Below, one piece after another: positions 33,900-47,492 of a stretch of DNA of 64,000 bases. The stretch's first letter is position 1. Each line of letters starts with the position of its first letter. The position numbers and the translations under genes were made by a program. The notes beneath the pieces were generated by a model. That model did not search any database, was not told where the DNA came from, and saw only the letters and a list, made by a program, of their open reading frames with translations. This DNA comes from Actinomycetota bacterium. Its GTDB lineage: Bacteria; Actinomycetota; Acidimicrobiia; Acidimicrobiales; JAJPHE01. The stretch covers positions 3,204 through 67,203 of the forward strand of contig DAHUYE010000041.1 of NCBI GenBank assembly GCA_027315345.1, given 5' to 3'.

Positions 33900-33925
33900 C
33901 CGTCGCCGAGTCGTAACCTCGGGAA

Positions 33926-34570: not shown

Positions 34571-34574
34571 GGCG

Positions 34575-35978
34575 TCAGACCGGCGCCGAGCCGTTGGCGG
34601 TCGCCCAGGCGCCGAACCCGCCGAGCAGATCGGACACGTCGGTGAACCCGTTCGCCTCCATCAGGCTGGACGCGGCGATGGAGCGGTAGCCGCCGGCGCA
34701 GTAGACGAGCACCGGTCGCTCCGGATCGAGTTGGCCGATGTCACCGAGGAGTCGGGGCAGGGGCAGGTTGACCGAACCGGGCAGAGCCCCCTCGGCCGAC
34801 TCCCCCGGGTTGCGGACGTCAACCACCTGGATGTCGGCCAGGCCGCGGATGTGGCGGTCCACCTGGCCGGCGTCCAGGCGGCTGCTCGAAGCGACCAGGG
34901 CCGGGTCGTCCACCAGGGCCCCGGGTTCGGTCACGGCGCCGGTGACGGAGTCCACCCCGACCCGGGCCAGGCGCAGCCGAGCCTCCTCGACCTGCTCGGG
35001 GGTCCCGAAGAGGATCACCTCCTGACCGGGGGTGTGCACGGCGGCGGCGTATTCGGCAAAGCGCCCCGACAGCCCGACGTTCACCGCCCCCCGGAGATGG
35101 CCGGCGGCAAAAGACTGGTCGTCGCGGACGTCGAGAAGTAGAGCGGCCTGGGACGCCCGCCGGACCGCCTCGGCCGGTGTGACGCCGGGTACCGGGGTGG
35201 CCGGGTCGAAGGGCAGGTGGCCGGCCCGGTTGAGCGCCACGTCCTCGCTGAAGTAGGCCGGGGGCTCGGCCAGGCCCTGGGTCACGGCGGCCACGAACTC
35301 CTCCTCGCTCATCGGAGCCAGTGCGTAGTTCGACCGGCGCTGCTGGCCGAGGGTCGAGAAGGTCTCCGAGGACAGGGCCTTGCCACACGCACTGCCGGCG
35401 CCGTGGCCGGGGTAGACCAGGACGTCGTCGGGCAAAGGGAGGATCTTCGCCCGCAGGGACCGGTACAGCTCGGCTGCCATCTGCTGGGCGGTCCGGCCGC
35501 TGGCACCGAGCAGGTCGGGCCGGCCCACGTCCCCGATGAAGAGGGTGTCCCCGGTGAGCAGGGCGTGGGGGGCGGCATCCGAGCCGTGCTCGAAGACGGC
35601 TATGGAGATCGACTCCGGGGTGTGGCCGGGCGTGGCCATCACCTCCAGCACGACTCCGGAGCCGGGGTCACCGAGGGCCAGGCGTTCACCGTCGGCCAGG
35701 CGGTGAACCGGAAAGGAGACCGGGGCCGCCTCACCCATGGCCACCTGGGCCCCGGTGGCGGCGGCCAACTCGGTGTGACCCGGGACGAAGTCGGCGTGGA
35801 CGTGGGTGAGCAGGATCCATTTGATGACCAGTCCGTGATCGGCGGCGTAGCTCAGGTACTCATCCACGTCCCGCCTCGGGTCGATGACGGCGGCCTGACC
35901 CGTTGCCTCGTCGGCTACGACATAGGAAGCCTGCGAAAGACAGCCGAGGTAAATCTGCTCGATGATCACGGTGCGCAC
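34575..35978 (-). CDS. CstB-like persulfide dioxygenase-sulfurtransferase fusion (MBL + non-catalytic rhodanese-homology domain + catalytic rhodanese)
   Basis: MBL metal motif LLTHVHADFVPG and YPGHGAGSACG. The middle rhodanese-like domain lacks Cys in its loop (ILFGTPEQ). The C-terminal rhodanese has the active loop YCAGGYRS. Confidence 0.8.
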   Translation of the reverse strand: MRTVIIEQIYLGCLSQASYVVADEATGQAAVIDPRRDVDEYLSYAADHGLVIKWILLTHVHADFVPGHTELAAATGAQVAMGEAAPVSFPVHRLADGERLALGDPGSGVVLEVMATPGHTPESISIAVFEHGSDAAPHALLTGDTLFIGDVGRPDLLGASGRTAQQMAAELYRSLRAKILPLPDDVLVYPGHGAGSACGKALSSETFSTLGQQRRSNYALAPMSEEEFVAAVTQGLAEPPAYFSEDVALNRAGHLPFDPATPVPGVTPAEAVRRASQAALLLDVRDDQSFAAGHLRGAVNVGLSGRFAEYAAAVHTPGQEVILFGTPEQVEEARLRLARVGVDSVTGAVTEPGALVDDPALVASSSRLDAGQVDRHIRGLADIQVVDVRNPGESAEGALPGSVNLPLPRLLGDIGQLDPERPVLVYCAGGYRSIAASSLMEANGFTDVSDLLGGFGAWATANGSAPV

Positions 35979-35994
35979 TTTCCTCTCTGGGCGG

Positions 35995-36222
35995 TCAGCC
36001 CTTGCGGATCAGGTATCTGTAGCCACCATCCAATAGGTCCGTGCCGATCAAGTCGTGGCCCATGTCCCGGGCCCACGCCGGGATGTCGCGGCAGCTGCCT
36101 GGATCGGTGGCCTCCAGGGCCATCAGCTGGCCCGACTCGATGTTGGCCATGCCCTTGCGGGCCATGACGACCGGCATCGGACAACTCTTACCCTTGGCGT
36201 CGACGACTATGTCTGGGTCCAC
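35995..36222 (-). CDS. tusA: TusA-family sulfur carrier
   Basis: 75 aa. Signature DAKGKSCPMPVV (CPxP). Confidence 0.88.
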   Translation of the reverse strand: MDPDIVVDAKGKSCPMPVVMARKGMANIESGQLMALEATDPGSCRDIPAWARDMGHDLIGTDLLDGGYRYLIRKG

Positions 36223-36257
36223 GTGGACTTCCTTTCCCCTTGGCTACCAGGGCCAGA

Positions 36258-36758
36258 TCAGATGAACAGGTTGATGGATGACCGCTGCATCTCCGACAGG
36301 GCACTGGCGGCGCCGACCGGCTCACCTACGCCGTCGACCAGGTCCTTGGTGGTGAGGCCCAGGAGGTCCATGGTCATCTGGCAGGGCCACAGGTTCACAT
36401 CCAGGTCGCGGCAGACCTGAAGCAACTCGGTCGGGCTGGCCACCTGATGACGTTCGGCCAGCGCCTTCATCATCCTGGGTCCGGCCCCGCCCATGTTGAG
36501 CTTGGAGAGCTTGCTGCGGGAGAGGCCGGGTGCGTTCATGGTGGACAAGGCCTTGGTCATCCAGTCGCTGCCGGTGATCCTCCTTTCCTCCTTCACCAGA
36601 CTGAACAGACCCCAGAAGGTGAAGAAGATGGTCACCTCCATGTCGTAGGCCGCCGCCGTGCTGGCCAGTATCAGCTGGGGCCACACCCGGTCGAGGTCCC
36701 CGCTCCAGGCCACCAGCGTCATGCGCTGGACCTGGTCGGTCTTGGAGAGTTCTTCCAT
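36258..36758 (-). CDS. DsrE/DsrF-like sulfur-relay family protein
   Basis: 166 aa. The VTIFFTFWGL...VNLWPCQMTMDL pattern matches the soluble DsrE-like proteins that partner with TusA. Confidence 0.75.
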   Translation of the reverse strand: MEELSKTDQVQRMTLVAWSGDLDRVWPQLILASTAAAYDMEVTIFFTFWGLFSLVKEERRITGSDWMTKALSTMNAPGLSRSKLSKLNMGGAGPRMMKALAERHQVASPTELLQVCRDLDVNLWPCQMTMDLLGLTTKDLVDGVGEPVGAASALSEMQRSSINLFI

Positions 36759-36795
36759 CGAGTTCCTCCCTGGGCGCCGGCACCACCTTTACCGG

Positions 36796-36841
36796 ATATG
36801 CAGATATGAGCATACACTCTGAGACAGACGTCACATCTGTC
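36796..36841. promoter_or_regulatory. Two short inverted repeats in the divergent dsrE / rhodanese-MBL promoter region (candidate operator of the adjacent ArsR-family regulator)
   Basis: TATGC-(8)-GCATA at 36797-36814 and GACAGA-(7)-TCTGTC at 36823-36841, in a locally AT-richer patch. Confidence 0.3.
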
Positions 36842-36872
36842 GGGGGAGGGCCAGGCGACATGCCGGTACGAA

Positions 36873-38000
36873 ATGGTTGACACGATTAGAGGTCTCGAGC
36901 TCTGGGAGGGCCTGAGGACAGGGTCCATCCCCCGGGTGGTGGACATGCGCAACGAGGATGACATCCGCGCCGCGCCCTTCGACGGCCCACCCGGGACCAT
37001 GGTCGATTCAATCCCCATCTGGCGGGCGCTGGACGAGCCGGAGCAACTGGCCGGGGCCATCGAGGACGGCACCGCCCTGGTCTGCGCCCTGGGCCACGGG
37101 GCCGAGATGGTGGTCGACATGCTGGCTGAGTCAGGCCGGCGGACGGTGGCCCTCGAAGGCGGGATGGCGGCCTGGGCCCGCCTGCTGGTGGCGGTGGAGA
37201 TCGGGCTTCCCCCCGGCGCCGGGATCAGGGTCTGGCAGGTGCTGCGCCCGGCCAAGGGCTGTCTCTCCTACGTGATCGGTGTTCCCGGCCGCGGGGCGGT
37301 GGTGGTGGATCCGGCGCGCTTCGTGGCGCCGTATCTGGAACTGGTCGAGTCGGCCGGGATGCAGCTGGTGGCGGTGGTGGACACCCACCTTCACGCCGAT
37401 CACATCAGCGGTGGAGCCGAGCTGGCCCGGACCGCCGGGGTCCCCTACCTGCTACCGGCCGGTGATTGTCCGGAGGGGACCTTCCCCGGGGGGGACCCGG
37501 CGTCGCTGGAACTCGACCCGGAGCGCCGGGCCGAGATCATCCGCCTGCACCTCCCCGGTCACACGCCCGGCTCCACGGCGGTGTCGGTACCGGGGGTGCT
37601 GTTGGCGGCCGGGGACACCCTTTTCCCCCACGGAGTCGGCCGGCCGGACCTGACCGGCCAGGCCGAGGTGTTGGCCCGCCAGCTCCACGCCAGCATCCAC
37701 GACCGCCTGGCCGGGATACCGGCCGACACCCGTCTGCTGGCGGCGCACTGGTCCCGGCCCGAGGACATCGGGGCCGACGGGACCGTCGTCAGCCGGCTGG
37801 GCGACGTACTGGGCGCCGATCATCTGACCGGCCTGGACGTCGACCGCTTCGTGGAACAGGTCGCCGCGACGCTGGCTCCGGCCCCCCCGTCCTACGATCG
37901 GATCCGTGAGATAAACGCCGGCGCCGAGGCCGGGGAGGAGGAGCTCGAGATCCTCGAGGTCGGGCGCAACCAGTGCTCGGCTGGCATGAGGCCGAGCTAG
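36873..38000 (+). CDS. Rhodanese-like domain fused to an MBL-fold (persulfide-dioxygenase-like) hydrolase
   Basis: N-terminal rhodanese-homology fold (VVDMRNEDD...VCALGHGA...GGMAAW), then VVDTHLHADHISGG and LPGHTPGS metal motifs. Confidence 0.78.
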   Translation: MVDTIRGLELWEGLRTGSIPRVVDMRNEDDIRAAPFDGPPGTMVDSIPIWRALDEPEQLAGAIEDGTALVCALGHGAEMVVDMLAESGRRTVALEGGMAAWARLLVAVEIGLPPGAGIRVWQVLRPAKGCLSYVIGVPGRGAVVVDPARFVAPYLELVESAGMQLVAVVDTHLHADHISGGAELARTAGVPYLLPAGDCPEGTFPGGDPASLELDPERRAEIIRLHLPGHTPGSTAVSVPGVLLAAGDTLFPHGVGRPDLTGQAEVLARQLHASIHDRLAGIPADTRLLAAHWSRPEDIGADGTVVSRLGDVLGADHLTGLDVDRFVEQVAATLAPAPPSYDRIREINAGAEAGEEELEILEVGRNQCSAGMRPS

Positions 38001-38087
38001 ACACCCGGGCTTCAGCCCAGCCCGCTCACTGGTTCCGGGCGGCGGAACCGGGAAGAATGGTGGGCTCAATCGAGGAAGGACGCCACC

Positions 38088-38405
38088 GTGGAGGAAACGC
38101 AGCGAGCCGAGGTGATGGCCCTGCATGCCAGGCTTTGCCAAGCCCTGGCCGATCCGAAGCGGCTGCTGCTCATCTACGAGCTCGACGCCGGGCCTCGGAG
38201 CGTGGGCGAACTGTGCGCCACCCTCGGCATTCCTCAATCCAACGTCAGCCAGCACCTGTCCATCCTGCGTGACCGGGGCATTGTCACCGCCTCGCGTTCG
38301 GGCGGCCGAATCGAGTACCGCCTGCGCGGTGAGAAGGTGGTTCAAGCTCTGGATTTGCTGCGTGAGTTCATGAGGGAGCAGGCCACCACGGCCCTCCTTC
38401 ACTGA
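38088..38405 (+). CDS. ArsR/SmtB family transcriptional regulator
   Basis: LADPKRLLLIYEL...VGELCATLGIPQSNVSQHLSILRDRGIV winged HTH. Two Cys residues (in RLCQAL and ELCATL). Confidence 0.88.
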   Translation: MEETQRAEVMALHARLCQALADPKRLLLIYELDAGPRSVGELCATLGIPQSNVSQHLSILRDRGIVTASRSGGRIEYRLRGEKVVQALDLLREFMREQATTALLH

Positions 38406-38413
38406 GCAGGCCC

Positions 38414-38455
<42 letters not shown>

Positions 38456-38456
38456 C

Positions 38457-38663
38457 TCAGCCCACCCGTCGCCGCAGCAGGCGGCTGAGCACGGAGGAAC
38501 CCGATCCCGACGCTTCAGGAGCGTGCCCCTGGCAGCGGTCCGCCTTGGGAACACCGGCCAGAACCTGGTCCACATGGCGGCCGCAGCCGGCCCAGGTCGT
38601 CTTGGAGCACTTCTTGCACCTCACTGCACGACACATGGCAGACGACGTCCTTTCGTCTTTCAT
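38457..38663 (-). CDS. Small cysteine-rich protein (CxxC...WAGCGxH...C)
   Basis: 68 aa from ATG 38663: MKDERTSSAMCRAVRCKKCSKTTWAGCGRHVDQVLAGVPKADRCQGH. An alternative start lies at MCRAV. Confidence 0.55.
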   Translation of the reverse strand: MKDERTSSAMCRAVRCKKCSKTTWAGCGRHVDQVLAGVPKADRCQGHAPEASGSGSSVLSRLLRRRVG

Positions 38664-38798
38664 CCGGATGGTCCGGACCTTCGACTTATACCCTATGGGG
38701 TACTCGGACCGAACGGACGGGCTCCCAAGCAGAGCTTTGGGATACCCAAGGTGGAAGGTGCTACCGGCGGACCGCACCCGTCGTTACCATCGCCCCTG

Positions 38799-40373
38799 AT
38801 GACCATGACGGACGGCCGGCCCTCCGAGCCGGCGGCGCCCCGGTGGGTCAAGGTTCTCGATCAGACCAGGTGCATCGGCTGCCACGCCTGCACCACCGCC
38901 TGCAAGAGCGAGAACTCGGTGCCTCTGGGCGTCACCCGCACCTACGTCAAGTCGGTGGAGGTGGGGACCTACCCACAGGTCCGGCGCAACTTCCAGGTGA
39001 CCCGCTGCAACCAGTGCTCCGACGCCCCCTGCGTGGCCGCCTGTCCGACCCGGGCCATGTACCGCCGTCCGGACGGCATCGTCGATTTCGATAAGTCGAT
39101 ATGCATCGGCTGCAAGGCGTGTATGGCCGCCTGTCCCTACGACGCCATCTTCATCAACCCCGAGGACCACTCGGCCGAAAAGTGCAACCTCTGCGCCCAC
39201 CGGCTCGAGATCGGCCTGGAGCCGGCCTGCGTGTCGGTCTGCCCGACCGAGGCCATCCTGGTGGGCGACCTCAACGACCCGACCTCCAAGGTGGCGAGGA
39301 TCGTGCAGCGCGAGCCGGTCACGGTGCGCCGCCCGGAGAAGGAGACCCGGCCCGGGCTGTTCTACAAGGGAGCCCACCAAGCCACCCTCGACCCACTGGC
39401 GGCCCGCCGCCCCGACGGCGGCCTGTACGCCTGGTCGACCCAGGGCGATCCCTCCAACCCGCAGCTGGTGGCCGCCGGTCACCCCTCGCACCACAACTCC
39501 TCGGCCGCCGCCCTGGTCTCCTACGACGTGCCCCACCTGGCCCCCTGGGGGTGGCGGGTGAGCCTGTACACCTGGACCAAGGGCCTGGCGGCGGGCGCCC
39601 TGGCGGTGGCGGTCGTGCTCGCCTATCTGGGGCGGCTCGGATTCTCCAGCTCGATCCTGCGCTACGCCGCCCCCTCCCTGGCCCTGGCCTTCCTGGCCGT
39701 GACCGGGGGACTGCTCATCTGGGACCTCAAGCACCCCTTCCGCTTCTACCTCATCTTCACCCGGCACCACTGGGGCTCATGGCTGGTGCGGGGCTCGTTC
39801 ATAATCGGCGCCTACGGTGCTGCCGCCAGCGCCTTTCTCCTGGTCGGGATTCTGGCCGGGACCGGGGCGGTGGCCGAGTCGGTGGCCGTGACGGCCATGA
39901 AGGTGATCGGTGGCCTGGCCGTGGCCGGGGCGGTGGGCACGGCCTGTTACACGGCTTTCCTCTTCGCCCAGGCCAAGGCCCGGGACCTGTGGCAGAGCCC
40001 CCTCCTGCCCCCCCACCTGGCGGTGCAGGCGGCCCTGGCCGGCTCGGCGGCGCTGATCCCCTTCGCCTACGGCAGCGGACTGCACCCGGCCCGCGCCGCC
40101 CTGGAGGTCACCCTGGCCCTGGCCGCCGGGCTGCACCTGCTCCTGGTCCTGGGTGAGCTGACCCTGACCCATCCGACCGCCCACGCCCACCTGGCCGCGG
40201 CGGAGATGTGGAGGGGCCGCTACGCCCGGTTCTTCTGGCCCGGCCTGCTGCTGATCGGCGTCGGAGTGGCCGCCCCCTGGATCGGGTGGGTGGCCGTCCC
40301 CTGCGCCCTGGCCGGTCTGCTGGCCCATGAGCATTCCTACGTCCAGGCCGGCCAGTCCGTCCCGCTGGCCTGA
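38799..40373 (+). CDS. Fused 4Fe-4S ferredoxin subunit + NrfD/PsrC-type membrane anchor of a Mo-bisPGD oxidoreductase
   Basis: N-terminal half has four Cys groups (CIGCHACTTAC, CNQCSDAPCVAAC, CIGCKACMAAC, CNLC..C..C). The C-terminal half has about 8 TM helices. No signal peptide or TM precedes the FeS domain. Start at ATG 38799. Confidence 0.85.
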   Translation: MTMTDGRPSEPAAPRWVKVLDQTRCIGCHACTTACKSENSVPLGVTRTYVKSVEVGTYPQVRRNFQVTRCNQCSDAPCVAACPTRAMYRRPDGIVDFDKSICIGCKACMAACPYDAIFINPEDHSAEKCNLCAHRLEIGLEPACVSVCPTEAILVGDLNDPTSKVARIVQREPVTVRRPEKETRPGLFYKGAHQATLDPLAARRPDGGLYAWSTQGDPSNPQLVAAGHPSHHNSSAAALVSYDVPHLAPWGWRVSLYTWTKGLAAGALAVAVVLAYLGRLGFSSSILRYAAPSLALAFLAVTGGLLIWDLKHPFRFYLIFTRHHWGSWLVRGSFIIGAYGAAASAFLLVGILAGTGAVAESVAVTAMKVIGGLAVAGAVGTACYTAFLFAQAKARDLWQSPLLPPHLAVQAALAGSAALIPFAYGSGLHPARAALEVTLALAAGLHLLLVLGELTLTHPTAHAHLAAAEMWRGRYARFFWPGLLLIGVGVAAPWIGWVAVPCALAGLLAHEHSYVQAGQSVPLA

Positions 40374-40412
40374 CCAGGGCACAGAGCCCGATAAGAAGGC
40401 GGTAACCGACCA

Positions 40413-43364
40413 ATGGCTGACCCCGACGAGAAGACCCCCGATCTGGCCGCTCTGGGAGCCCGGGTGTCGGCGGCCCGAGCGGCCACCGAGGCCCGGGGCG
40501 AGACCTTCTATCAGGGAGCCTCCCGGACTGTGCTGGCCGGCTTCCCGCCCATCGAGAGGTGGGACGACTGGGTGGAGCTGGACTCCCGGGCGTGGCCGAA
40601 GAGGGTCGAGCACCACTCGATGCTGGTGCCGACCACCTGCTTCAACTGCGAGTCGGCCTGTGGGCTTCTCGCCTACGTCGACCGTGAGACGCTGACCGTG
40701 CGCAAGTTCGAGGGGAACCCGGAGCATCCCGGCTCCCGGGGCCGGAACTGCGCCAAGGGCCCCTCCACCCTCAACCAGGTGACCGATCCCGACCGCATCC
40801 TGTATCCCCTGCGCCGGGCCGGACGCCGGGGCGAGGGCAAATGGGAGCGGGCCAGCTGGGACGAGGCTCTCGACGCCATCGGGTCCCGGTTGCGGGCGGC
40901 CATCGTGGAGGGTCGCCAGAACGAGATCATGATCCACATCGGCCGTCCCGGTGAGGACGGCTTCACCGAGCGGGTCCTGGCCAGCTGGGGGGTCGACGGC
41001 CACAACAGCCACACCAACGTGTGCTCCTCGGGGGGCCGCACCGGTTTCCAGTTCTGGACCGGGATCGACCGGCCCAGCCCCGACTATGCCAACGCCAAGG
41101 TCATCTTCCTCATCAGCGCCCATCTCGAGACCGGCCACTACTTCAATCCCCACGCCCAGCGGATCACCGAGGCCCGGGCCAGCGGGGCGAAGGTCATCGT
41201 CGTCGACACCCGACTGTCCAACACGGCCACCCACGCCGACTACTGGCTGTCGCCCCGCCCGGGTAGTGAAGCGGCCATCAACCTGGCCATCGCCCGCCAC
41301 ATCATCGGTTCGGGCCGGGCCAACTGGGACTTCATCCGCGACTGGTGGAACTGGCAGGAGTACCTGAGGGACTGCCGGCCTGAGGGCCCTCAGACCTTCG
41401 AGGCGTTCCAGGCCGCCCTGGGCGAGATCTACGACGGCTACACCTTCGAATACGCCGCCGCCGAGTCCGGGCTCGACGCCACCGTCATTGCCGAGATCGC
41501 CGAGGTGGTGGCCGGGGCCGGCACAGCCTTTTCGTGCCATTCGTGGCGCTCGGCGGCGGCCGGAAACCTGGGGGGCTGGCAGGTCTCACGCACGCTGTTC
41601 TTCCTGGCCGCCATCCTGGGGGCGGTCGCCACCCCAGGGGGCACCTTCCCCAACTGGTACAACAAATACGTCCCGAAGCCCATCTACACGCCTCCGCACC
41701 CCCAGGTGTGGCAGGAGCTGTCGTGGCCGCTGGAGTACCCGCTGGCCCAGAACGAGCTGAGCTTTCTCCTGCCGCACTTCCTCAAGGACGGCCGGGGCCG
41801 TCTGGACACCTATTTCACCCGGGTCTACAACCCGGTTTGGACCAACCCTGACGGACTGTCGTGGATGGAGGTCCTCACCGATGAGGACAAGGTGGGCTGT
41901 TACGTAGCCCTGACCCCGACCTGGAACGAGTCGGCCTACTACGCCGACTGGATCCTGCCCATGGGTCACGCCTCGGAGCGCCACGACACCCACTCCTACG
42001 AGCAGTACGACGGCCAATGGGTGGGCTTCCGCCAGCCGGTGCTGCGGGCGGCCCGGGAGCGCCTCGGGGAGGACATCACCGACACCCGCCAGGTCAACCC
42101 GGGCGCGGTGTGGGAGGAGAACGAGTTCTACATCGAGCTGTCGTGGCGGATCGACCCGGATGGATCCCTCGGCATCCGCTCCTTCTACGAATCCAGGGCC
42201 CGGCCCGGAGAGAAGTTGTCCGTCGACGAGTACTACGGCTGGATGTTCGAGAACTCCGTCCCCGGCCTGCCGGAGAGGGCTGCGGGAGAGGGCCTGACCC
42301 CGCTCCAGTACATGCGCCGCTACGGGGCGTTCGAGATCACCCGGGGTCGTGGGGCGATCTACTCCGAGGACATCCCCGGTGATGAGCTGGCTGACGTGGC
42401 CGTGACCGACATCGGACGGGTGTACTCCGCCACCCCCAAGCCGGACTCGCCCAACTTGGCACCCCAGGGGGCGCCGGAACCCGATGATCAGGGCCGTCGG
42501 GCGGTCGGGGTCATGGTGGACGGCAGCGTGCGGAGGGGCTTCCCGACGCCGTCGGGACGCTTGGAGTTCTACTCGTCCACGCTGGCCGGTTGGGGCTGGC
42601 CGGAACACGCCCTGCCCGGTTACATCAAGAGCCACGTCCACCCGGACAACATGGCGGCCGACCAGATGGTCCTGCTCTCCACCTTCCGCCTTCCTACCCA
42701 GATCCACACCCGCTCGGCCAACAGCAAGTGGCTTGATGAGCTCTCCCACACCAACCCGGTGTGGATCCACCCCTCCGACGCCGGCCGGCTCGGGGTGGCC
42801 CGGACCGGTGACCTGGTCCGGGTCGAGACCGAGATCGGCTACTTCGTGGCCAAGGCCTGGATCACCGAGGGGATTCGCCCCGGAGTCGTGGCCTGCAGCC
42901 ATCACATGGGCCGCTGGAAGCTGGTCGGCCATGACGCAGTCGGCAGCGGCGGGATGATGGCGACCGTTGCTCTCGACCGCGACCGCGAAGGCTGGACGTT
43001 GCACCCCCGTCAGCGGGTCAAGCCCTACCCCTCCAGCGACCCTGACACCCAGCGAATCTGGTGGTCCGATACCGGTGTACACCAGAACCTCACCTTCCCG
43101 GTACACCCCGATCCGATCTCGGGCATGCACTGTTGGCACCAGGCTGTCCGGGTGCGCCCGGCCGGGCCGGGGGATGCCCACGGAGACGTTTGGGTGGATA
43201 CCGCCAAGGCCCATGAGGTCTATGACCGGTGGCTGGCGATGACCCGGCCGGCGGGGACCTTTTCGCCCGACGGCAACCGCCGGCCCACGTGGCTCATGCG
43301 ACCCCTCAAGCCGGCAGCCCGGACCTTCAAGCTCGACGCCGCCGCTCCGGCCGGCGGGTCGTAG
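40413..43364 (+). CDS. Molybdopterin (bis-PGD) oxidoreductase catalytic subunit, no Tat signal
   Basis: 983 aa. N-terminal FeS motif CFNCESAC...C(AKG), candidate Mo-ligand region HTNVCSSGG, MopB-type core and C-terminal barrel. An in-frame TAA 21 nt upstream of the ATG excludes a longer N-terminus. Confidence 0.88.
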   Translation: MADPDEKTPDLAALGARVSAARAATEARGETFYQGASRTVLAGFPPIERWDDWVELDSRAWPKRVEHHSMLVPTTCFNCESACGLLAYVDRETLTVRKFEGNPEHPGSRGRNCAKGPSTLNQVTDPDRILYPLRRAGRRGEGKWERASWDEALDAIGSRLRAAIVEGRQNEIMIHIGRPGEDGFTERVLASWGVDGHNSHTNVCSSGGRTGFQFWTGIDRPSPDYANAKVIFLISAHLETGHYFNPHAQRITEARASGAKVIVVDTRLSNTATHADYWLSPRPGSEAAINLAIARHIIGSGRANWDFIRDWWNWQEYLRDCRPEGPQTFEAFQAALGEIYDGYTFEYAAAESGLDATVIAEIAEVVAGAGTAFSCHSWRSAAAGNLGGWQVSRTLFFLAAILGAVATPGGTFPNWYNKYVPKPIYTPPHPQVWQELSWPLEYPLAQNELSFLLPHFLKDGRGRLDTYFTRVYNPVWTNPDGLSWMEVLTDEDKVGCYVALTPTWNESAYYADWILPMGHASERHDTHSYEQYDGQWVGFRQPVLRAARERLGEDITDTRQVNPGAVWEENEFYIELSWRIDPDGSLGIRSFYESRARPGEKLSVDEYYGWMFENSVPGLPERAAGEGLTPLQYMRRYGAFEITRGRGAIYSEDIPGDELADVAVTDIGRVYSATPKPDSPNLAPQGAPEPDDQGRRAVGVMVDGSVRRGFPTPSGRLEFYSSTLAGWGWPEHALPGYIKSHVHPDNMAADQMVLLSTFRLPTQIHTRSANSKWLDELSHTNPVWIHPSDAGRLGVARTGDLVRVETEIGYFVAKAWITEGIRPGVVACSHHMGRWKLVGHDAVGSGGMMATVALDRDREGWTLHPRQRVKPYPSSDPDTQRIWWSDTGVHQNLTFPVHPDPISGMHCWHQAVRVRPAGPGDAHGDVWVDTAKAHEVYDRWLAMTRPAGTFSPDGNRRPTWLMRPLKPAARTFKLDAAAPAGGS

Positions 43365-44296
43365 TGGCCCGAGCGGCGGTGACGGGGCCCGCCGCGGACA
43401 CGGTCGGCCCGGCCCGGTCCGCAACCGGGCGGGCCCGGATGGCGGCTGGCGACCGTTGGGAACTGCTCCGGGCCCTTGGCGCTCTGATCCTGGACGACCC
43501 GACTGTCACCCCGGCGTTGAGCCGGGCCCTGGGTCTGCCGGAGTGGAGCCGGGCCGACCACACCGGCATATTCGTCCTCGACCTGCCTCCCTACGCCTCG
43601 ATCCACCTCGGCCCGGAGGGCAAGTTGGGAGGCGAGGGGGGCGATCGGGTGGCCGGATTCTGGCGCACCCTGGACCTGGATCCGCCCTCCGACGCCGATC
43701 ACCTGTGCTCCCTCCTGGCGCTCTACGCCGAGTTGGGGACGGCGGCCCAGGAGTGCGTCACCGCCGCCGCCGCCGCCCGTCTGGACCACGCCCGGGCGGT
43801 CCTTCTGTGGGAGCACCTCTGGTCGTGGGTCCCGGGATACCTGGCCGCGGTAGCCCAGGACCCGGCCGGGAAGGCCTGGGCAGAGCTGACCGGCCAGGCC
43901 CTGCGAGCCGAGGCGGAGGCCACCCCCGAGCCGCCCGAACTGCCCGCGGCCCTGCGTCACGCCCCCGAGCCCCTCGATCCTGGATGCGACCTGGCGGAGC
44001 TGTTGGACGGGTTCACCGCCCCTGTCCGGGCCGGCTTCGTGCTCACTTACCGGGACCTGCTACGGGCCGGCGCCGAGATCGGCGTGGGGGTCCGGCGGGG
44101 GGAGAGGCGTTTCGCCCTGCGCTCGATGATGGAGCAGGACCCGGTCGCCACGCTGCGCTGGTCGGCCGGCCACGCCCGCCGATGGGCCCGGATCCACGGG
44201 GACCAGCCCGACCACGGCGCCGGTACCGGCCGATGGTGGGCACAGCGGGCCGCCGCCACCGCCTCCTGCCTGGACGAGATGCGCGCCGGGCGCTGA
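43364..44296 (+). CDS. TorD/NarJ-family redox-enzyme maturation chaperone
   Basis: Core LPPYASIHLGPEGKLGGE....DADHLCSLLALYAEL matches the TorD/DmsD/NarJ pattern. The start is either GTG 43364 (overlapping the upstream stop) or ATG 43439. Confidence 0.65.
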   Translation: MARAAVTGPAADTVGPARSATGRARMAAGDRWELLRALGALILDDPTVTPALSRALGLPEWSRADHTGIFVLDLPPYASIHLGPEGKLGGEGGDRVAGFWRTLDLDPPSDADHLCSLLALYAELGTAAQECVTAAAAARLDHARAVLLWEHLWSWVPGYLAAVAQDPAGKAWAELTGQALRAEAEATPEPPELPAALRHAPEPLDPGCDLAELLDGFTAPVRAGFVLTYRDLLRAGAEIGVGVRRGERRFALRSMMEQDPVATLRWSAGHARRWARIHGDQPDHGAGTGRWWAQRAAATASCLDEMRAGR

Positions 44297-44343
44297 CACC
44301 CGACCGGACTCTGCCGGGGGCGCCCAGGGCTACGGTCACGCCG

Positions 44344-45261
44344 GTGGCCTCACTGGAGAGCGTCGAGCTGTTCGAGTTGCGCCTGCTGCACGCCGTGGCC
44401 GAAACCGGCAGCCTGGGCCAGGTCGCCCTGCGCTACAACGTTTCCCAGCCGGCGGTCAGCATGCGCATGAGTCAGCTGGAGCGCCGGCTCGGGCTTCGCC
44501 TCCTACGGAGGGACCCATCCGGGACCCGGCTGACCTCGGCGGGCGAGGAGCTCCTCGTGGCAGCCCGCCCCATGCTCAACTCCGCCGACGCCCTGCTGCG
44601 GGTGGTGGACCGGCTCCGGGCGGAGGCTGCCGGCCGGTTGCGGGTGGCGGCGTCCTTCACCGTGGCCGAGTACCTGGCTCCGGCCTGGATCGAGACCGTC
44701 CGCTCCGAGGCGCCGGAGGCGTCGCTGGCCCTGGAGGTCCTCAACTCATCCCAGGTGATCGTGGCCGTCGAGGAGCGCCGGGTCGACGTGGGTTTCGTGG
44801 AGGGGGCCGAGCGGACCCTGCCCACTCTCACCACCCAGATGGTGGCCACCGACGAGCTGGTGGTGGTGGTCGCCCCCTCCGTGCCGCTGGCCCGCCGGCG
44901 TAAGCCCCTCGGCCCGGCCGAGCTGGCCGGGCTGGACCTGATCGTGCGGGAGCCGGGGTCCGGTACCCGGGAGATCCTCGACCGGGCCCTCGAGGCGTGG
45001 GGAGGCCCCTCGTCGCGTCTGGAGCTGGGTTCGTCCGAGGCGCTTCTGGCCGCCGCCCGCCGTGGGGAAGGCCCGGCCGTGCTCAGCCGTCTGGCGGCCG
45101 CTGACGACCTGGAGAGCGGCCGGCTGGTGGTCGTGCCCGTCAGCGGTGTCGACCTGACTCGGACCATCCGGGCTGTGTGGGCCGCGGACACCGTGCCCGG
45201 CCCTCTGGCCCGCCGCCTGCTGCGGGCCGCCGTCCACCCCGAGGGCCCCCGAGGGCCCTGA
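44344..45261 (+). CDS. LysR family transcriptional regulator
   Basis: HTH LRLLHAVAETGSLGQVALRYNVSQPAVSMRMSQLERRLGLRLL plus a LysR substrate-binding domain. Only the last third of the 601-aa track ORF is this gene. Confidence 0.88.
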   Translation: MASLESVELFELRLLHAVAETGSLGQVALRYNVSQPAVSMRMSQLERRLGLRLLRRDPSGTRLTSAGEELLVAARPMLNSADALLRVVDRLRAEAAGRLRVAASFTVAEYLAPAWIETVRSEAPEASLALEVLNSSQVIVAVEERRVDVGFVEGAERTLPTLTTQMVATDELVVVVAPSVPLARRRKPLGPAELAGLDLIVREPGSGTREILDRALEAWGGPSSRLELGSSEALLAAARRGEGPAVLSRLAAADDLESGRLVVVPVSGVDLTRTIRAVWAADTVPGPLARRLLRAAVHPEGPRGP

Positions 45262-45301
45262 GGGGTCCGTGGTCCCGTCGCCACCCCTATAGTCGGCGTG
45301 C

Positions 45302-45442
45302 GTGCGCGCCCTGGGTCGAGCAGCGGTGGCCCTGGGCGTGGCCGGGGCGGTGGCATCGGCGCTGCGCCTGTTCGTCACCCGGCGTCCGGTGTCCGAGCAG
45401 GGCGGAGGTTGGCGGGAGCTGACCGGGCCCGAGATGGAGTAG
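45302..45442 (+). CDS. Possible 46-aa single-TM peptide
   Basis: Below the track size cut-off. VRALGRAAVALGVAGAVASALRLFVTRRP..., strongly GC3-biased, ending 4 nt before the next gene start. Weak evidence only. Confidence 0.25.
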   Translation: MRALGRAAVALGVAGAVASALRLFVTRRPVSEQGGGWRELTGPEME

Positions 45443-45445
45443 GTC

Positions 45446-46456
45446 TTGGCCCGCTATGTGGTGGCCGGCCTGGGGGCGGTGGGGGCACGTGCCGCCCGCC
45501 AAGTCCATTCCCTCGGGAACGTGGATGCGCTCTGGCTGGTCGGAGCTGACCGGGCCCGGGCCCAGGAGATTGCCGGGGCCATCGGTGGCCCGGCCCGGCC
45601 CGGCGCCTGGGAGGCGGCCCTGGCTGATTCTCCCGACGCCGTCGTGTTCTGCGGCGCGGCGGGGCAGCTGATCCGAGCCGACCGGGTGGTCGAGCGGGCC
45701 TCGGCGGCGCTGGACGCCGGCGCCAGCGTGGTTTCCACCGCCGACGGGCTGGAGGAGATGGACGGGCTGCTGGCTCTGGACGCCCGGGCCCGCGACGGGG
45801 GCCGCCACGTGGTGGTCGGGGCCGGCTTCTGTCCCGGCCTCAGTTGCATTCTGGCCGTCCATGCCGCCGCCCGGATGGCCGAGGTGGCCGAGGTCAGGGT
45901 GGCCGCCTCGGGAGCGGGTGGGCCGGCCTGCCGGCGAAGTTACCTGCGCTCTCTCCGGGGTCCCACTCACGAGTGGGAGTCAGGCACGTGGGTATCCCAC
46001 CCGGCCGGCTCGGGCCGTGAGCTGTGCTGGTTCCCCGATCCCGAGGGGGCCCGGGACTGCTACCGGGCCGACTTCGCCGCCACCCAGTTGCTGTTGTCCG
46101 CCTTCCCCTCGGCCCAGCGCATCAGTGCCCGGCGGGCCGGCTCCCCCCGGGAGCGGATGGGCCTGGGCCAACGCCTGGTGCACCGGCACTCGGAGGGATC
46201 GTCGGGCGCCGTCCGGGTCGAGGTGGTCGGACGCCAGGACGGAGCAGTGGTCTCCAGGGTGCTGGGGGCCTACGACCGGCCGGCTCTGGCCGCCGGAGCC
46301 GTGGCCGCCCTGGCGGCGCACTGGGCGGTGGAACACCGGCTGGCCCGCACCGGCGCCGGCGGGATGGGGGAACTGGTCAAGGACAGCGCCGGGTTCCTGG
46401 CCCAGCTGGCTGAGCGAGGCGTGAAGGCGGCGGTCTTCACTGGCAATGATGGCTGA
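45446..46456 (+). CDS. Saccharopine-dehydrogenase-like NAD(P)-binding protein
   Basis: TTG start. Rossmann N-terminus YVVAGLGAVGARAA, and GAGFCPGLS typical of the Sacchrp_dh family. Confidence 0.65.
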   Translation: MARYVVAGLGAVGARAARQVHSLGNVDALWLVGADRARAQEIAGAIGGPARPGAWEAALADSPDAVVFCGAAGQLIRADRVVERASAALDAGASVVSTADGLEEMDGLLALDARARDGGRHVVVGAGFCPGLSCILAVHAAARMAEVAEVRVAASGAGGPACRRSYLRSLRGPTHEWESGTWVSHPAGSGRELCWFPDPEGARDCYRADFAATQLLLSAFPSAQRISARRAGSPRERMGLGQRLVHRHSEGSSGAVRVEVVGRQDGAVVSRVLGAYDRPALAAGAVAALAAHWAVEHRLARTGAGGMGELVKDSAGFLAQLAERGVKAAVFTGNDG

Positions 46457-46883
46457 GCCGGGCCTGAGCCGGGGACGCCGGCCGCGCCGCAGGGCCGGCG
46501 GTGCCGGGCCGACTTTGAGTGGCCTGGCCGGTCTGGTCGCGGCCGGCCTGGTCCTGGCCGGCTGCGCGGCCGGTAACCAAGCCGGGGCCCTGCAGGCGCC
46601 GGCGCCGGTGTCGGGGGTGGTGACGGCCCGACCTCCATGCGCATCGGGACAGGCCTGTTCGTTCCTGGTCGCCCTGGTTCCCGGTGCCCTGGTGGTGGCC
46701 AACGGTAAGGACGGCACCCACGAGGTCCGGGCCGACGGGCACGGGCGCTACCGGATCTTCCTGCTGGAAGGGGTGTGGACCCTCCAAGCCGCCCGTAACC
46801 CCAACTCTCCCATGGGCCGACCGGTCCGGGTCGACCTCACTGCCGGGCGGGCGGTCACGGTGAATCTGTCGGCCGGCTCCTGA
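46446..46883 (+). CDS. Lipoprotein with carboxypeptidase-regulatory-like beta-sandwich
   Basis: Lipobox LVLAGC. ...ADGHGRYRIFLLEGVWTL resembles CarboxypepD_reg repeats. Confidence 0.6.
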   Translation: MMAEPGLSRGRRPRRRAGGAGPTLSGLAGLVAAGLVLAGCAAGNQAGALQAPAPVSGVVTARPPCASGQACSFLVALVPGALVVANGKDGTHEVRADGHGRYRIFLLEGVWTLQAARNPNSPMGRPVRVDLTAGRAVTVNLSAGS

Positions 46884-46907
46884 GCCGCCGGCCGCCACGC
46901 CGCCGGG

Positions 46908-47492
46908 TCAGCTGACCCGGCGCACGTCGAGGTACTGAACCCCGAACTGCTTGCAGTCCTCATAGGTCGGTTCCCACACGTCGATGTGGCGGCCCCGCAC
47001 GGCGCCGCCGGTGTCATCGGCCACCCGGTAGCCCACGCCCTGGATCCACAGGCGGGTGCCGAGCGGGATGACGGAGGGATCGACGGCCACGCTGTCGGGA
47101 CCGGCTTCGTCTCCGTTGGCGGTTTGGCCGTGGATGTCGTAGCAGGTGGCCATGAACTGGCCCAGGTCGGTGCCGCCCGGGCCGTTGGTCTCCGCCTTGG
47201 CGGTGACGACCGGGGCGGCGGTGGTCGTGGTGGTGGTCGGAGCGGTGGTGGTGGTGCTGGATGTGGTGGTCGTGGTGGGGGCCGGCTCCACCAGGGCGGC
47301 CAGGTCGGCCTCGACGCCGTTGTTGGCCGGTCCGGACAGCTCGGCGTGGTGGGCGCCGGTCGGGCCGGGCGAGTCCTCGGCCCCCACGGCCAGGGAGTGG
47401 GCCGGGGTGAAGACCAGGACGTTGGCTCCCGCTCCGGCGGCCAGGGCCAGGGCCAGGCGGCGACGTCTACGGCGGGGAAGGGGTACGGACAT
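46908..47492 (-). CDS. Secreted 3D-domain (RlpA/MltA-like double-psi barrel) cell-wall protein with poly-Thr linker
   Basis: Signal peptide with RRRRRR n-region, T-rich linker ([20 protein letters not shown]). C-terminal motif [39 protein letters not shown] has the three conserved Asp context. Confidence 0.8.

What the first reader, a model, noticed from the sequence alone, without database searches (positions are those of the whole stretch)
38799..44296. Cytoplasm-facing Psr/Soe-type molybdoenzyme with fused FeS-NrfD subunit: candidate actinobacterial SoeABC-like sulfite dehydrogenase
Seen in sequence. The gene order is [4x FeS-cluster ferredoxin fused to an ~8-TM NrfD/PsrC anchor], then a 983-aa bis-PGD catalytic subunit, a TorD/NarJ-like chaperone and a LysR regulator. 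The catalytic subunit starts MADPDEKTPDL... with no RRxF(L/I)K motif. An in-frame TAA 21 nt upstream of its ATG excludes a hidden Tat signal. The FeS domain sits at the extreme N-terminus of the fusion with no signal peptide or TM before it, so it must remain cytoplasmic. Established knowledge: PsrABC, PhsABC and TtrABC relatives export A and B by Tat to the periplasm. The characterised cytoplasm-oriented member of this three-subunit family is SoeABC sulfite:quinone oxidoreductase of purple sulfur bacteria, which has a large signal-less A subunit. Inference: the neighbouring genes (persulfide dioxygenase-rhodanese fusions that produce sulfite, TusA, DsrE) would supply sulfite in the cytoplasm, giving a coherent persulfide to sulfite to sulfate route. 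I do not know of a described B-C fusion or a BC-A-chaperone gene order for this enzyme class.
Basis: partly seen in the sequence, partly recalled or inferred. Interest (0 to 1): 0.7.

Follow-up and report, generated by a model that had tools for sequence, protein, structure and literature searches.

The report
Inward-facing molybdoenzyme with fused anchor
This is a membrane-bound molybdenum enzyme whose iron-sulfur subunit is fused to its membrane anchor so that it faces the cell interior; it belongs to a large, unnamed family found in many soil phyla and in haloarchaea, and it most likely oxidises sulfite made inside the cell, although nobody has tested this.

Summary
38799-40373 encodes one 524-aa protein with a 16-Cys (4x[4Fe-4S]) domain followed by an 8-helix NrfD/PsrC domain. 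40413-43364 encodes a 983-aa bis-PGD subunit with no Tat signal and an in-frame TAA 21 nt upstream. A TorD/NarJ-like gene and a LysR gene (44338-45261) follow. Charge bias in the membrane loops is the reverse of E. coli NrfD, which supports a cytoplasmic orientation.

The feature is not an actinobacterial oddity. The B-C fusion and the signal-less A subunit recur in every family locus examined, across about ten bacterial phyla and haloarchaeal plasmids (A 41-86% identical). Forty-one of 93 loci carry sulfur-linked neighbours: PDO-rhodanese, TusA, DsrE2, SulP sulfate permease, TauE/SafE, YeeE and a CstR-like regulator. Tight DsrE2-PDO-TusA-BC-A operons occur in Vicinamibacteria and Rhodococcus.

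Sulfite:menaquinone oxidoreduction is the best-supported function (about 0.5). Membership of canonical SoeABC could not be tested, because no SoeA reference sequence was obtainable. The nearest relatives outside the family that I could identify are Tat-exported enzymes with separate B and C genes in the same B-C-A-chaperone order. I rate it a new variant of a known kind, of moderate-to-good interest.

The parts
38799..40373 (+). BC fusion protein of 524 aa. The N-terminal 4x[4Fe-4S] ferredoxin domain covers aa 1-205 (nt 38799-39413). A low-complexity linker covers aa 206-249. The NrfD/PsrC-type 8-helix quinone-interacting anchor covers aa 250-524 (nt 39546-40373).
   Evidence: Pfam Fer4_11 plus NrfD. 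PsrB 2vpw_B by sequence, E 1e-49. Model and fold match to PsrB, PsrC and ActC. Sixteen invariant Cys. B and C lie in one ORF in 66 of 67 loci; the 67th (L001) differs only in the computed ORF start.
40392..40394 (+). In-frame TAA 21 nt upstream of the A start codon, which rules out a hidden N-terminal extension or Tat signal.
   Evidence: Read directly from the sequence.
40413..43364 (+). Catalytic A subunit, 983 aa, a Mo/W-bisPGD enzyme. The FS0 cysteines C76, C79, C83 and C113 lie at nt 40638-40751. The predicted Mo ligand C204 lies at nt 41022-41024. There is no Tat signal.
   Evidence: Pfam. Nearest solved structures are ArrA and PsrA. C204 aligns with PsrA Cys173. Invariant columns.
40443..40493 (+). 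N-terminal amphipathic helix of A (aa 11-27, LAALGARVSAARAATEA). It is a candidate docking peptide for the TorD/NarJ-like chaperone and may be a vestige of a Tat signal.
   Evidence: Helix 11-27 in the model. The motif R[VLI]S[AVT][ATS][RK] co-occurs with a downstream chaperone gene in 36 of 37 loci against 4 of 45, although this pattern is clade-structured. The role is inferred.
43436..44296 (+). TorD/NarJ-family maturation chaperone, 286 aa.
   Evidence: PF02613, E 8e-10. A homologue is found just downstream of A in 40 of 82 family loci with enough downstream sequence. A 286-aa orthologue occurs in nearest-relative contigs.
44338..45261 (+). LysR-family regulator of about 307 aa. The start is inferred from the orthologue length.
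   Evidence: tblastn gives 60% identity to the LysR beside the Aciditerrimonas operon. Synteny in L087 and L088 with HTH_1 plus LysR_substrate. NCBIfam LysR models.
34575..35978 (-). MBL-fold (ETHE1/GloB-like) plus two rhodanese domains. This is a CstB-like candidate persulfide dioxygenase-sulfurtransferase.
   Evidence: Pfam Lactamase_B plus 2x Rhodanese. NCBIfam gives partial Blh and GloB matches below cut-off. The PDO activity is inferred.
35995..36243 (-). TusA sulfur carrier.
   Evidence: PF01206, E 6e-21. NF001423 scores 71 bits against a cut-off of 78.
36258..36758 (-). DsrE2-type sulfur carrier.
   Evidence: PF13686, E 1e-45. NF047629 DsrE2 matches below cut-off.
36873..38000 (+). Second MBL-fold protein (375 aa) on the same strand as BC-A. 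Its orthologue in Vicinamibacteria L001 carries an N-terminal rhodanese-like region and sits between DsrE2 and TusA in a BC-A operon.
38689..38702 (.). Palindrome TACCCTATGGGGTA about 95 nt upstream of BC. It resembles CsoR/CstR operators. This is a lead only.
   Evidence: It is the only copy in the window, but that is not significant: about 0.9 matches are expected with one mismatch allowed. Similar sites occur in the RHA1 locus. No CsoR-family gene is present in the window.

Best explanation
The four genes BC, A, chaperone and LysR encode a complex iron-sulfur molybdoenzyme that is anchored in the membrane and faces the cytoplasm.

Shown by sequence:
- A has all the cysteines needed for the FS0 cluster and the Cys ligand for Mo-bisPGD.
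- The B domain has four cubane-cluster motifs.
- The C domain is a haem-less 8-helix PsrC-type quinone module.
- B is covalently joined to the N-terminus of C, and nothing in A or BC can direct export. The fully cofactor-loaded B domain therefore has to stay inside, and C inserts with its N-terminus in, which is the reverse of PsrC and NrfD.

Inferred:
- The TorD/NarJ-like protein holds apo-A by its N-terminal helix until Mo-bisPGD is inserted, as NarJ does for NarG.
- A then docks on the B domain.
- The substrate is sulfite produced in the cytoplasm by the neighbouring MBL-rhodanese persulfide dioxygenases, which are fed by TusA and DsrE2.
- Two electrons pass from Mo through FS0 and the four B clusters to menaquinone bound at the cytoplasmic side of C.
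- Sulfate leaves through an anion transporter: SulP, CLC or TauE family in other members, and not identified in this window.
- The step itself would be electroneutral. Energy would be conserved downstream by the menaquinol oxidases.

By architecture this is a functional analogue of SoeABC. By sequence it belongs to a separate, widespread fused-BC clade.
For: Domains and cofactor ligands.

Orientation:
- No Tat signal in 80 of 80 family A proteins.
- Fusion in all loci examined.
- Positive-inside bias opposite to E. coli and Sulfurovum NrfD.
- 8-TM PsrC fold.

Sulfur and oxyanion context:
- The window itself.
- Vicinamibacteria L001, with DsrE2-MBL-TusA-BC-A on one strand.
- R. jostii RHA1 pRHL3, with DsrE-TusA-BC-A-Mrp plus three MBL genes.
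- Aciditerrimonas, with SQR-like and PDO-Rhd genes.
- Myxococcota UBA796, with PDO-Rhd and two YeeE/Sulf_transp genes directly upstream.
- T. roseum, with a two-Cys CsoR-family regulator directly upstream.
- A SulP sulfate permease downstream in 28 loci.
- Halomicrococcus, with rhodanese-TauE/SafE-BC-A-MobA-anion permease.
- Overall, 41 of 93 loci have a sulfur-linked neighbour, and no other recurrent theme appeared in the neighbour clustering.

Phylogeny: A groups with Psr/Phs-like sequences and away from E. coli DmsA, NapA and NarG. The family plus three Tat-bearing relatives form a clade with 98% NJ bootstrap support.

Chaperone and N-terminal helix co-occurrence.
Against: - There is no biochemical or genetic data for any member of the family.
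- No canonical SoeA sequence could be obtained, so kinship is untested.
- 52 of 93 loci show no sulfur gene within the 4-10 kb inspected. In Mycolicibacterium and Gordonia the partners are Mrp/NBP35 and a CLC channel only.
- CstB-type PDO-rhodanese fusions are known to make thiosulfate rather than release sulfite (my own knowledge of S. aureus CstB).
- A signal-less 'Soe-like' cluster 2 in Thioalkalivibrio is induced by arsenite and has no assigned substrate (PMC6620896). Orientation alone therefore does not fix the substrate.
- The topology evidence rests on charge statistics and a structure model, not on a dedicated predictor or an experiment.
Confidence: 0.5

Rival explanations
1. The architecture and orientation are the same, but the substrate is another sulfur species. 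Candidates are thiosulfate (the product of CstB-type enzymes), polysulfide, protein-bound persulfide delivered by TusA/DsrE2, or tetrathionate. The enzyme might run reductively with menaquinol.
For: - The best partial NCBIfam matches include PhsA (167 bits), and the nearest solved structures are ArrA and PsrA.
- TusA lies immediately upstream of BC in two phyla.
- YeeE/Sulf_transp genes, a family linked to thiosulfate uptake (my own knowledge), lie upstream in UBA796.
- The Aquifex enzyme now called SoeABC was first described as a sulfur reductase (PMC10100899).
Against: - SulP, TauE and anion-permease neighbours fit an oxyanion product that must leave the cell.
- Persulfide dioxygenases generate sulfite, which is toxic and needs a sink.
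- Reducing sulfur species in aerobes that already oxidise them would be futile.
Confidence: 0.22
2. It is a true orthologue of SoeABC, that is, a member of the bSreA/SoeA lineage whose soeB and soeC genes have merely fused and moved ahead of soeA.
For: - It has the same subunit chemistry, the same missing signal, and a similar A length. My recollection is that A. vinosum SoeA is about 109 kDa.
- Wells et al. report that the bSreA/SoeA lineage is large (1,354 GTDB hits) and collapses at 50% identity (PMC10100899). The present family behaves similarly, with 53-86% identity across phyla in its core.
Against: - SoeC was found only in Proteobacteria, Clostridia and Aquificae in KEGG genomes (PMC8076601).
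- IMG gives the family COG names, not the soeA KO name.
- In the exhaustive representative search, every signal-less full-length hit that I looked up carries the fusion, and the closest unfused relatives have Tat signals.
- Gene order and fusion differ from soeA-soeB-soeC.
Confidence: 0.2
3. It oxidises or reduces a non-sulfur substrate in the cytoplasm, for example arsenite or thioarsenate, selenite, or formate.
For: - ArrA is the top structural and sequence match.
- Ars genes lie 3-6 kb upstream in Gordonia.
- A Soe-like enzyme in Thioalkalivibrio is induced by arsenite.
- Calisto and Pereira tentatively call an uncharacterised NrfD group from Actinobacteria, Chlorobi, Chloroflexi and Deltaproteobacteria a formate:quinone oxidoreductase. 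Whether that group is this family is unknown.
Against: - No recurrent arsenic, selenium or formate genes appear across the 93 loci, whereas sulfur genes recur.
- All matches to ArrA, Fdh and Nar models are far below their cut-offs.
- A scores only 67 bits against the actinobacterial formate dehydrogenase model, whose cut-off is 1400.
Confidence: 0.08
4. The enzyme faces outward after all, exported by an unrecognised route or by a start codon upstream of the ones chosen.
For: The BC frame is open to a GTG at 38523, and the extension contains an RRR stretch.
Against: - The extension has no hydrophobic region after the arginines and overlaps a minus-strand ORF.
- Homologues start at the proposed ATG.
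- A has a stop codon 21 nt upstream of its start.
- Charge bias is inverted relative to exported systems.
- No signal was seen in 80 loci.
Confidence: 0.03

Closest known systems
SoeABC sulfite:quinone oxidoreductase (Allochromatium vinosum Alvin_2491-2489; Aquifex aeolicus aq_1234/1232/1231; EC 1.8.5.6)
   Same: - A Mo-bisPGD subunit with an FS0 cluster, a four-cluster FeS subunit, and a haem-less 8-TM NrfD-type anchor.
- No Tat signal, and a predicted cytoplasmic orientation with an inverted anchor (PMC8076601).
- Association with cytoplasmic sulfur-oxidation genes.
   Different: - B and C are one polypeptide here.
- Gene order is BC-A-chaperone rather than A-B-C.
- A TorD/NarJ-like chaperone is encoded alongside.
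- The partners are PDO, TusA and DsrE2 rather than Dsr or sHdr.
- The taxonomic range is different (Actinomycetota, Acidobacteriota, Gemmatimonadota, Planctomycetota, haloarchaea and others).
- Sequence kinship is untested, and the indirect evidence points to a separate clade.
PsrABC / PhsABC polysulfide and thiosulfate reductases (T. thermophilus 2VPZ)
   Same: - This is the nearest solved architecture: PsrB 41% identity, PsrC fold TM 0.70, and PsrA E 7e-30.
- The Cys ligand to Mo is equivalent.
   Different: - Psr and Phs are Tat-exported and periplasmic, with separate subunits and an A of about 760 aa.
- A here is 983 aa with extra insertions and an N-terminal extension (PPxERW motif).
- Orientation is reversed.
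Uncharacterised Tat-exported relatives with B-C-A-TorD order (metagenomic P0245 locus L093; Azoarcus sp. KH32C pAZKH AZKH_RS23105-23120)
   Same: - P0245 is the closest Tat-exported, unfused relative of A that I identified (45-48% identity), inside the same 98% NJ clade. The Azoarcus A subunit is more distant (33% identity) and was not included in the tree.
- Both have the same gene order, B, C, A, TorD-like.
   Different: - They carry RRTFLK Tat signals.
- B and C are separate genes.
- An extra cytochrome c or Fer4 protein is encoded.
- Their function is unknown.
NarGHI-NarJ respiratory nitrate reductase
   Same: - A cytoplasm-facing CISM.
- Its catalytic subunit keeps a non-functional N-terminal signal remnant that is bound by a TorD-family chaperone (established knowledge).
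   Different: - Nar uses an Asp ligand and a dihaem NarI anchor.
- NarG scores only 27 bits here and is the outgroup in the tree.
PSRLC3 of green sulfur bacteria (proposed cytoplasmic sulfite-oxidising Psr-like complex, Frigaard and Dahl 2008)
   Same: It is a signal-less Psr-like complex proposed, without experiment, to oxidise sulfite (mentioned in PMC6338057).
   Different: No sequence was available to compare. Whether it is related to this family, or has fused subunits, is not known to me.

Membership tests
SoeABC (sulfite dehydrogenase, quinone) | Mo-bisPGD A subunit with an N-terminal [4Fe-4S] site, a 4x[4Fe-4S] B module, and a haem-less NrfD-type C module. | tested here: met
SoeABC (sulfite dehydrogenase, quinone) | No Tat or Sec signal on A or B, so A and B lie on the cytoplasmic side. 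| tested here: met
   Stop codon 21 nt upstream of A. No signal in 80 family loci. Charge bias inverted relative to NrfD. This is sequence-level evidence only.
SoeABC (sulfite dehydrogenase, quinone) | Three separate genes in the order soeA-soeB-soeC. | tested here: not met
   B and C form one ORF placed before A, here and in every locus examined. The canonical order is A, B, C, as in TPY_0113-0115.
SoeABC (sulfite dehydrogenase, quinone) | The A subunit clusters with characterised SoeA (Alvin_2491, aq_1234) in a phylogeny. | not testable with these tools
   No reference sequence was obtainable: the homologue and genome scans were exhausted, the AFDB library was absent, and the papers are not held. 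Indirect evidence is negative.
SoeABC (sulfite dehydrogenase, quinone) | Sulfite-dependent quinone reduction. | not testable with these tools
   This needs membranes or purified enzyme.
Psr/Phs/Ttr/Arr periplasmic CISM enzymes | A twin-arginine signal on the catalytic subunit, with export of A and B. | tested here: not met
   Tat-bearing relatives are clearly recognisable by comparison.
Psr/Phs/Ttr/Arr periplasmic CISM enzymes | A score above the curated equivalog cut-off (PhsA 694, TtrA 1750, ArrA 1600 bits). | tested here: not met
   The scores are 167, 97 and 107 bits.
NrfD/PsrC membrane anchor family (PF03916) | An 8-helix, cofactor-less quinone module. | tested here: met
   Pfam scores 62.9 bits against a cut-off of 25.8. 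Fold match to 2vpw_C and ActC.
TorD/NarJ redox-enzyme maturation proteins (PF02613) | The Nitrate_red_del domain, encoded next to its client molybdoenzyme. | tested here: met
   39.4 bits against a cut-off of 22.2. Syntenic just downstream of A in 40 of 82 family loci with enough downstream sequence.

The most novel reading that the evidence does not exclude
The fused-BC, signal-less enzymes are a separate lineage that turned a periplasmic B-C-A-TorD molybdoenzyme inward. It did so by losing the Tat signal, keeping a vestige as the chaperone handle, and welding B to an inverted C. On this reading it arose independently of proteobacterial SoeABC. It would then be the main cytoplasmic sulfite:menaquinone oxidoreductase of aerobic soil phyla (Actinomycetota, Acidobacteriota, Gemmatimonadota, Planctomycetota, Chloroflexota) and of haloarchaea. 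Such a step is missed by current sulfur-cycle annotation, which gives these proteins no KO or NCBIfam name.
Probability: 0.3. Interest if true: 0.72.

Novelty: new variant of a known kind. Interest (0 to 1): 0.56.

Why it matters
- If the enzyme oxidises sulfite, many abundant heterotrophs in soil and sediment would have an unannotated route from persulfide or organosulfur-derived sulfite to sulfate that feeds electrons into the quinone pool. Metagenomic sulfur budgets based on soeABC, sorAB or aprAB would miss it.
- The family is a natural experiment in membrane-protein topology. The same PsrC-type module is used in both orientations, with a gene fusion that fixes the inverted form.
- Tractable hosts carry it (Rhodococcus jostii RHA1 on pRHL3, Mycolicibacterium, Gordonia, Thermomicrobium roseum), so the hypothesis can be tested directly.

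Tried and rejected
Attempts to obtain a canonical SoeA reference, all unsuccessful:
- The exhaustive representative search returned unnamed sequences.
- The genome-contig scan with P0242 returned only the fused family.
- The third homologue search used a contig labelled 'Luminiphilus' (L065) in the hope that it was a proteobacterial SoeA. Its named relatives were all Planctomycetota, so it probably belongs to the planctomycete sub-clade.
- tblastn against plasmids found no unfused signal-less operon.
- The AFDB fold libraries were unavailable.
- Dahl 2013, Boughanemi 2020 and Gregersen 2011 are not held.
- Supplements of three papers held no sequences.

Other dead ends:
- One literature search was badly framed and gave nothing.
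- I first tested the wrong minus-strand ORF for LysR and wrongly noted it absent. This was corrected by tblastn and synteny.
- A CsoR/CstR operator was considered. The palindrome at 38689 is not significant on its own, is not conserved upstream of BC in other loci, and the window holds no CsoR gene.
- The Rfam scan of 33000-47000 found no Moco riboswitch or other cis-RNA upstream of the operon.
- The sigma-70 promoter scan found nothing.
- The first NJ bootstrap run timed out, and the second gave meaningless support values because the replicates were not rooted. This was fixed.
- The C domain has no sequence-level PDB match. The fold search was needed.


Full report
**What is there**

The window is high-GC (about 70%), so I chose ORFs by third-position GC and by homology.
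- 38799-40373 (+) encodes a 524-aa protein.
  - Its first 205 residues carry four complete Cys motifs (16 Cys) of a PsrB/NrfC-type four-cluster ferredoxin (Fer4_11, E 2e-24; PsrB 2vpw_B, E 1e-49).
  - Its last 275 residues are an NrfD/PsrC domain (PF03916, E 5e-17).
- Forty nucleotides downstream, 40413-43364 encodes a 983-aa bis-PGD protein with Molybdop_Fe4S4, Molybdopterin and Molydop_binding domains.
  - It starts MADPDEKTPDL, and TAA lies in frame 21 nt upstream.
- 43436-44296 encodes a TorD/NarJ-family protein (PF02613).
- A LysR regulator follows on the same strand at about 44338-45261.
  - I first missed it by testing a spurious minus-strand ORF.
  - tblastn with the LysR that flanks the Aciditerrimonas operon gave 60% identity.
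  - The two contigs that encode the closest relative of A (95% identity) show the same order, BC-A-chaperone-LysR.
- Upstream lie an MBL plus 2x rhodanese gene, TusA and DsrE2 on the minus strand, and a second MBL gene on the plus strand.

**Cofactor competence**

I aligned 43 homologues spanning 54-94% identity.
- The four FS0 cysteines (C76, C79, C83, C113) and C204 are invariant.
- C204 aligns with Cys173, the molybdenum ligand of T. thermophilus PsrA.
- All 16 cysteines of the B domain are invariant in 39 homologues.
- This is therefore an active-type enzyme, not a cofactor-less relic such as QrcB or ActB.
- The AlphaFold model of A (pLDDT 78, pTM 0.83) matches ArrA and PsrA best.
- No NCBIfam equivalog comes near its cut-off: PhsA scores 167 against 694, ArrA 107 against 1600, TtrA 97 against 1750, and NarG 27.

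**Orientation**

Four lines of evidence point to a cytoplasmic orientation.
- A has no room for a signal.
- In 80 related loci, no A protein carries a twin-arginine motif followed by a hydrophobic stretch. The single flagged case was a read-through artefact.
- The B domain is the extreme N-terminus of the fusion, and no hydrophobic segment precedes residue 255. A domain that binds four FeS clusters cannot be threaded through Sec.
- The model of the fusion gives eight confident helices (250-520), and its C domain superposes on PsrC (TM 0.70) and on ActC.

The positive-inside rule agrees.
- Over 39 family members, the loops on the N-terminal side (2-3, 4-5, 6-7) hold 3.9, 2.0 and 2.7 K+R on average.
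- The loops on the other side hold 1.0, 0.2 and 0.5.
- As controls I took E. coli NrfD and the NrfD beside a related A gene in Sulfurovum. Both show the opposite bias, with K/R in loops 1-2, 3-4 and 5-6.
- The anchor is therefore predicted to be inverted relative to exported systems. The same has been proposed, also without experiment, for SoeC (PMC8076601).

**It is a family, not an oddity**

- Homologues of A at 78-95% identity occur in Conexibacter, Acidimicrobiales, Aciditerrimonas and Streptosporangiaceae.
- The fusion protein occurs in Mycolicibacterium, Gordonia, Friedmanniella, Jatrophihabitans and a Dormibacteraeota MAG.
- The window itself is probably from an Acidimicrobiales bacterium, because BC is 95% identical to a MAG of that order.
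- A scan of one genome per GTDB species returned 80 loci. They come from Actinomycetota, Acidobacteriota, Gemmatimonadota, Myxococcota, Planctomycetota, Binatia, Deinococcales, Chloroflexota, Rokubacteria and SAR324. A identities to the window range from 50% to 85% in these loci.
- B and C fall in one ORF placed before A in 66 of 67 loci. The 67th (L001) differs only in the computed ORF start.
- Plasmid-borne copies exist:
  - R. jostii RHA1 pRHL3 (58% identity);
  - the T. roseum megaplasmid (62%);
  - five haloarchaeal plasmids (49-53%).
- The family is highly conserved for its breadth.

**Neighbours**

A census of 93 family loci by tblastn with 21 query proteins found a sulfur-linked neighbour in 41. 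The counts were:

| Neighbour | Loci |
|---|---|
| MBL/PDO-rhodanese | 12 |
| SulP sulfate permease (Pfam-confirmed) | 28 |
| DsrE | 5 |
| TusA | 3 |
| YeeE | 2 |
| SQR-like | 2 |
| TauE/SafE | 1 |
| CsoR-family regulator | 1 |

The most telling arrangements are single-strand operons or directly adjacent genes:
- DsrE2-MBL-TusA-BC-A in a Vicinamibacteria MAG.
- DsrE-TusA-BC-A-Mrp in RHA1.
- PDO-Rhd-YeeE-YeeE-BC-A in Myxococcota UBA796, the most divergent signal-less member at 46% identity.
- Rhodanese-TauE/SafE-BC-A-MobA-anion permease in Halomicrococcus.
- A two-Cys (CstR-like) CsoR-family gene directly before BC in T. roseum.

Unsupervised clustering of all flanking ORFs found no competing functional theme. 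In Mycobacteriales the operon continues with Mrp/NBP35 and a CLC channel and has no sulfur genes nearby.

**Relation to known enzymes**

I could not obtain a characterised SoeA sequence by any route (see the tried-and-rejected section), so the key membership test is open. Five pieces of indirect evidence argue against simple orthology.
- HMMER read one representative of every 50% cluster of about 15 billion proteins. Among the 150 best, the signal-less full-length proteins I looked up (P0241, P0242, P0247, P0252) all have a fused BC gene upstream.
- The closest unfused relatives are Tat-exported.
  - P0245 (45-48% identity, RRTFLK) sits in a locus with cytochrome c, B, C, A, a TorD-like gene and a Fer4 gene.
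  - Azoarcus pAZKH has B, C, A (TRRTFLK) and TorD.
- In an NJ tree (923 columns, 200 bootstraps), the fused family plus P0245, P0270 and P0308 form a 98% clade. This clade is distinct from Psr/Phs-like Tat proteins and from E. coli DmsA, NapA and NarG.
- A survey of KEGG genomes found SoeC only in Proteobacteria, three Clostridia and Aquificae.
- IMG names these proteins from COGs rather than from the soeA KO, whereas it does use KO names for Psr/Phs relatives.

Against this, Wells et al. describe bSreA/SoeA as a large lineage that collapses at 50% identity. That would also describe this family. I therefore leave orthology at about 0.2.

What is distinctive is the fusion together with the loss of the signal.

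**Chaperone and N-terminus**

- A begins with a predicted amphipathic helix (residues 11-27) in the position that the signal peptide occupies in the Tat-bearing relatives. In Gemmatimonadota this helix reads LNRRVSAAR.
- Across the family, the motif R[VLI]S[AVT][ATS][RK] co-occurs with the downstream TorD-like gene. It is present with the gene in 36 of 37 loci that have the motif, against 4 of 45 that lack it (Fisher 2e-17).
- At least three of the four exceptions carry variant helices (RLRARR in L029; RVRAAR in L040 and L048).
- The association is clade-structured and so is not independent evidence in the statistical sense.
- It does fit the NarG/NarJ precedent, in which a vestigial signal is kept as the chaperone handle. 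This is inference.

**Mechanism and confidence**

- I regard the architecture and the inward orientation as well supported (about 0.85).
- Electron flow from Mo through FS0 and four clusters to menaquinone follows from the family.
- The substrate is inferred from context. Sulfite is the best candidate, for three reasons:
  - the recurrent partners make sulfite or persulfide in the cytoplasm;
  - sulfate, sulfite and anion transporters recur next to the operon;
  - the one characterised inward-facing enzyme of this architecture is a sulfite dehydrogenase.
- I put the sulfite function at about 0.5, another sulfur substrate at about 0.2, and a non-sulfur substrate below 0.1. The arsenite-induced Soe-like enzyme of Thioalkalivibrio shows that such enzymes need not act on sulfite.

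**Verdict**

- The object is a new variant of a known kind. It is a widespread, unnamed, fused-anchor, cytoplasm-facing CISM family with a coherent and directly testable link to sulfur oxidation.

Noticed in passing
window 28582-32352 (+): GyrA (1256 aa) is interrupted by an intein with a LAGLIDADG homing-endonuclease domain (PF14528, PF14890), lying between the topoisomerase IV domain segments.
   Followed up: no
window 38414-38458: A GCTCCG hexamer tandem array of 7.7 copies (95% match) lies immediately 3' of a small minus-strand ORF, in the 800-nt gap before the BC gene.
   Followed up: partly
window 38457-38666 (-): A 69-aa Cys-rich ORF (MKDERTSSAMCRAVRCKKCSKTTWAGCGRHVDQ...) lies divergent from BC and has no Pfam match. 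Its conservation was not examined.
   Followed up: no
window 38689-38702; L081 1711, 1731, 11616: A CsoR/CstR-operator-like palindrome, TACCC-N3-GGGGTA, lies about 95 nt upstream of BC. Three similar sites occur in the R. jostii pRHL3 sulfur locus. The window site is not significant on its own, and the window holds no CsoR gene.
   Followed up: partly
L093 (metagenome contig, P0245); L103 (Azoarcus sp. KH32C pAZKH 59931-65091): Uncharacterised Tat-exported relatives have separate B and NrfD genes, the same B-C-A-TorD order, and an extra cytochrome c or 360-aa Fer4 protein. Their substrate is unknown.
   Followed up: partly
L002, L065, L076, L079: These loci carry 'orphan' A genes of the family with no BC gene within the flanks. 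In L076 the downstream genes are a radical-SAM protein and a glycosyltransferase. The contig labelled Luminiphilus (L065) groups with Planctomycetota sequences and may be misbinned.
   Followed up: partly
L081 (RHA1 pRHL3), L082 (T. roseum megaplasmid), L091 and L092 (haloarchaeal plasmids): Family copies sit on plasmids and megaplasmids. The RHA1 copy (59% identity) is far more divergent from the window than other Actinomycetota copies (77-86%), which suggests horizontal transfer.
   Followed up: no
L084 and L089 (Mycolicibacterium chlorophenolicum, Gordonia sp.): In Mycobacteriales the operon is BC-A-chaperone-Mrp/NBP35-CLC channel. Mrp/NBP35 also follows A in RHA1 and in Natrinema. This may be a dedicated FeS-cluster delivery factor.
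   Followed up: no
window 48946-52918: This region holds PntA/PntB transhydrogenase genes and a third MBL-fold gene (Strvi_7410 family, 282 bits, below cut-off). Any link to the sulfur cluster is unknown.
   Followed up: no
window 33826-33899 (+): A tRNA gene (Rfam, 77.8 bits) lies between the SDR and methyltransferase genes, upstream of the sulfur cluster.
   Followed up: no
window 45446-46456 (+): A 336-aa ORF with coding-like GC3 has no Pfam match but is conserved next to LysR in the nearest-relative contig (L087 6120-7130).
   Followed up: no
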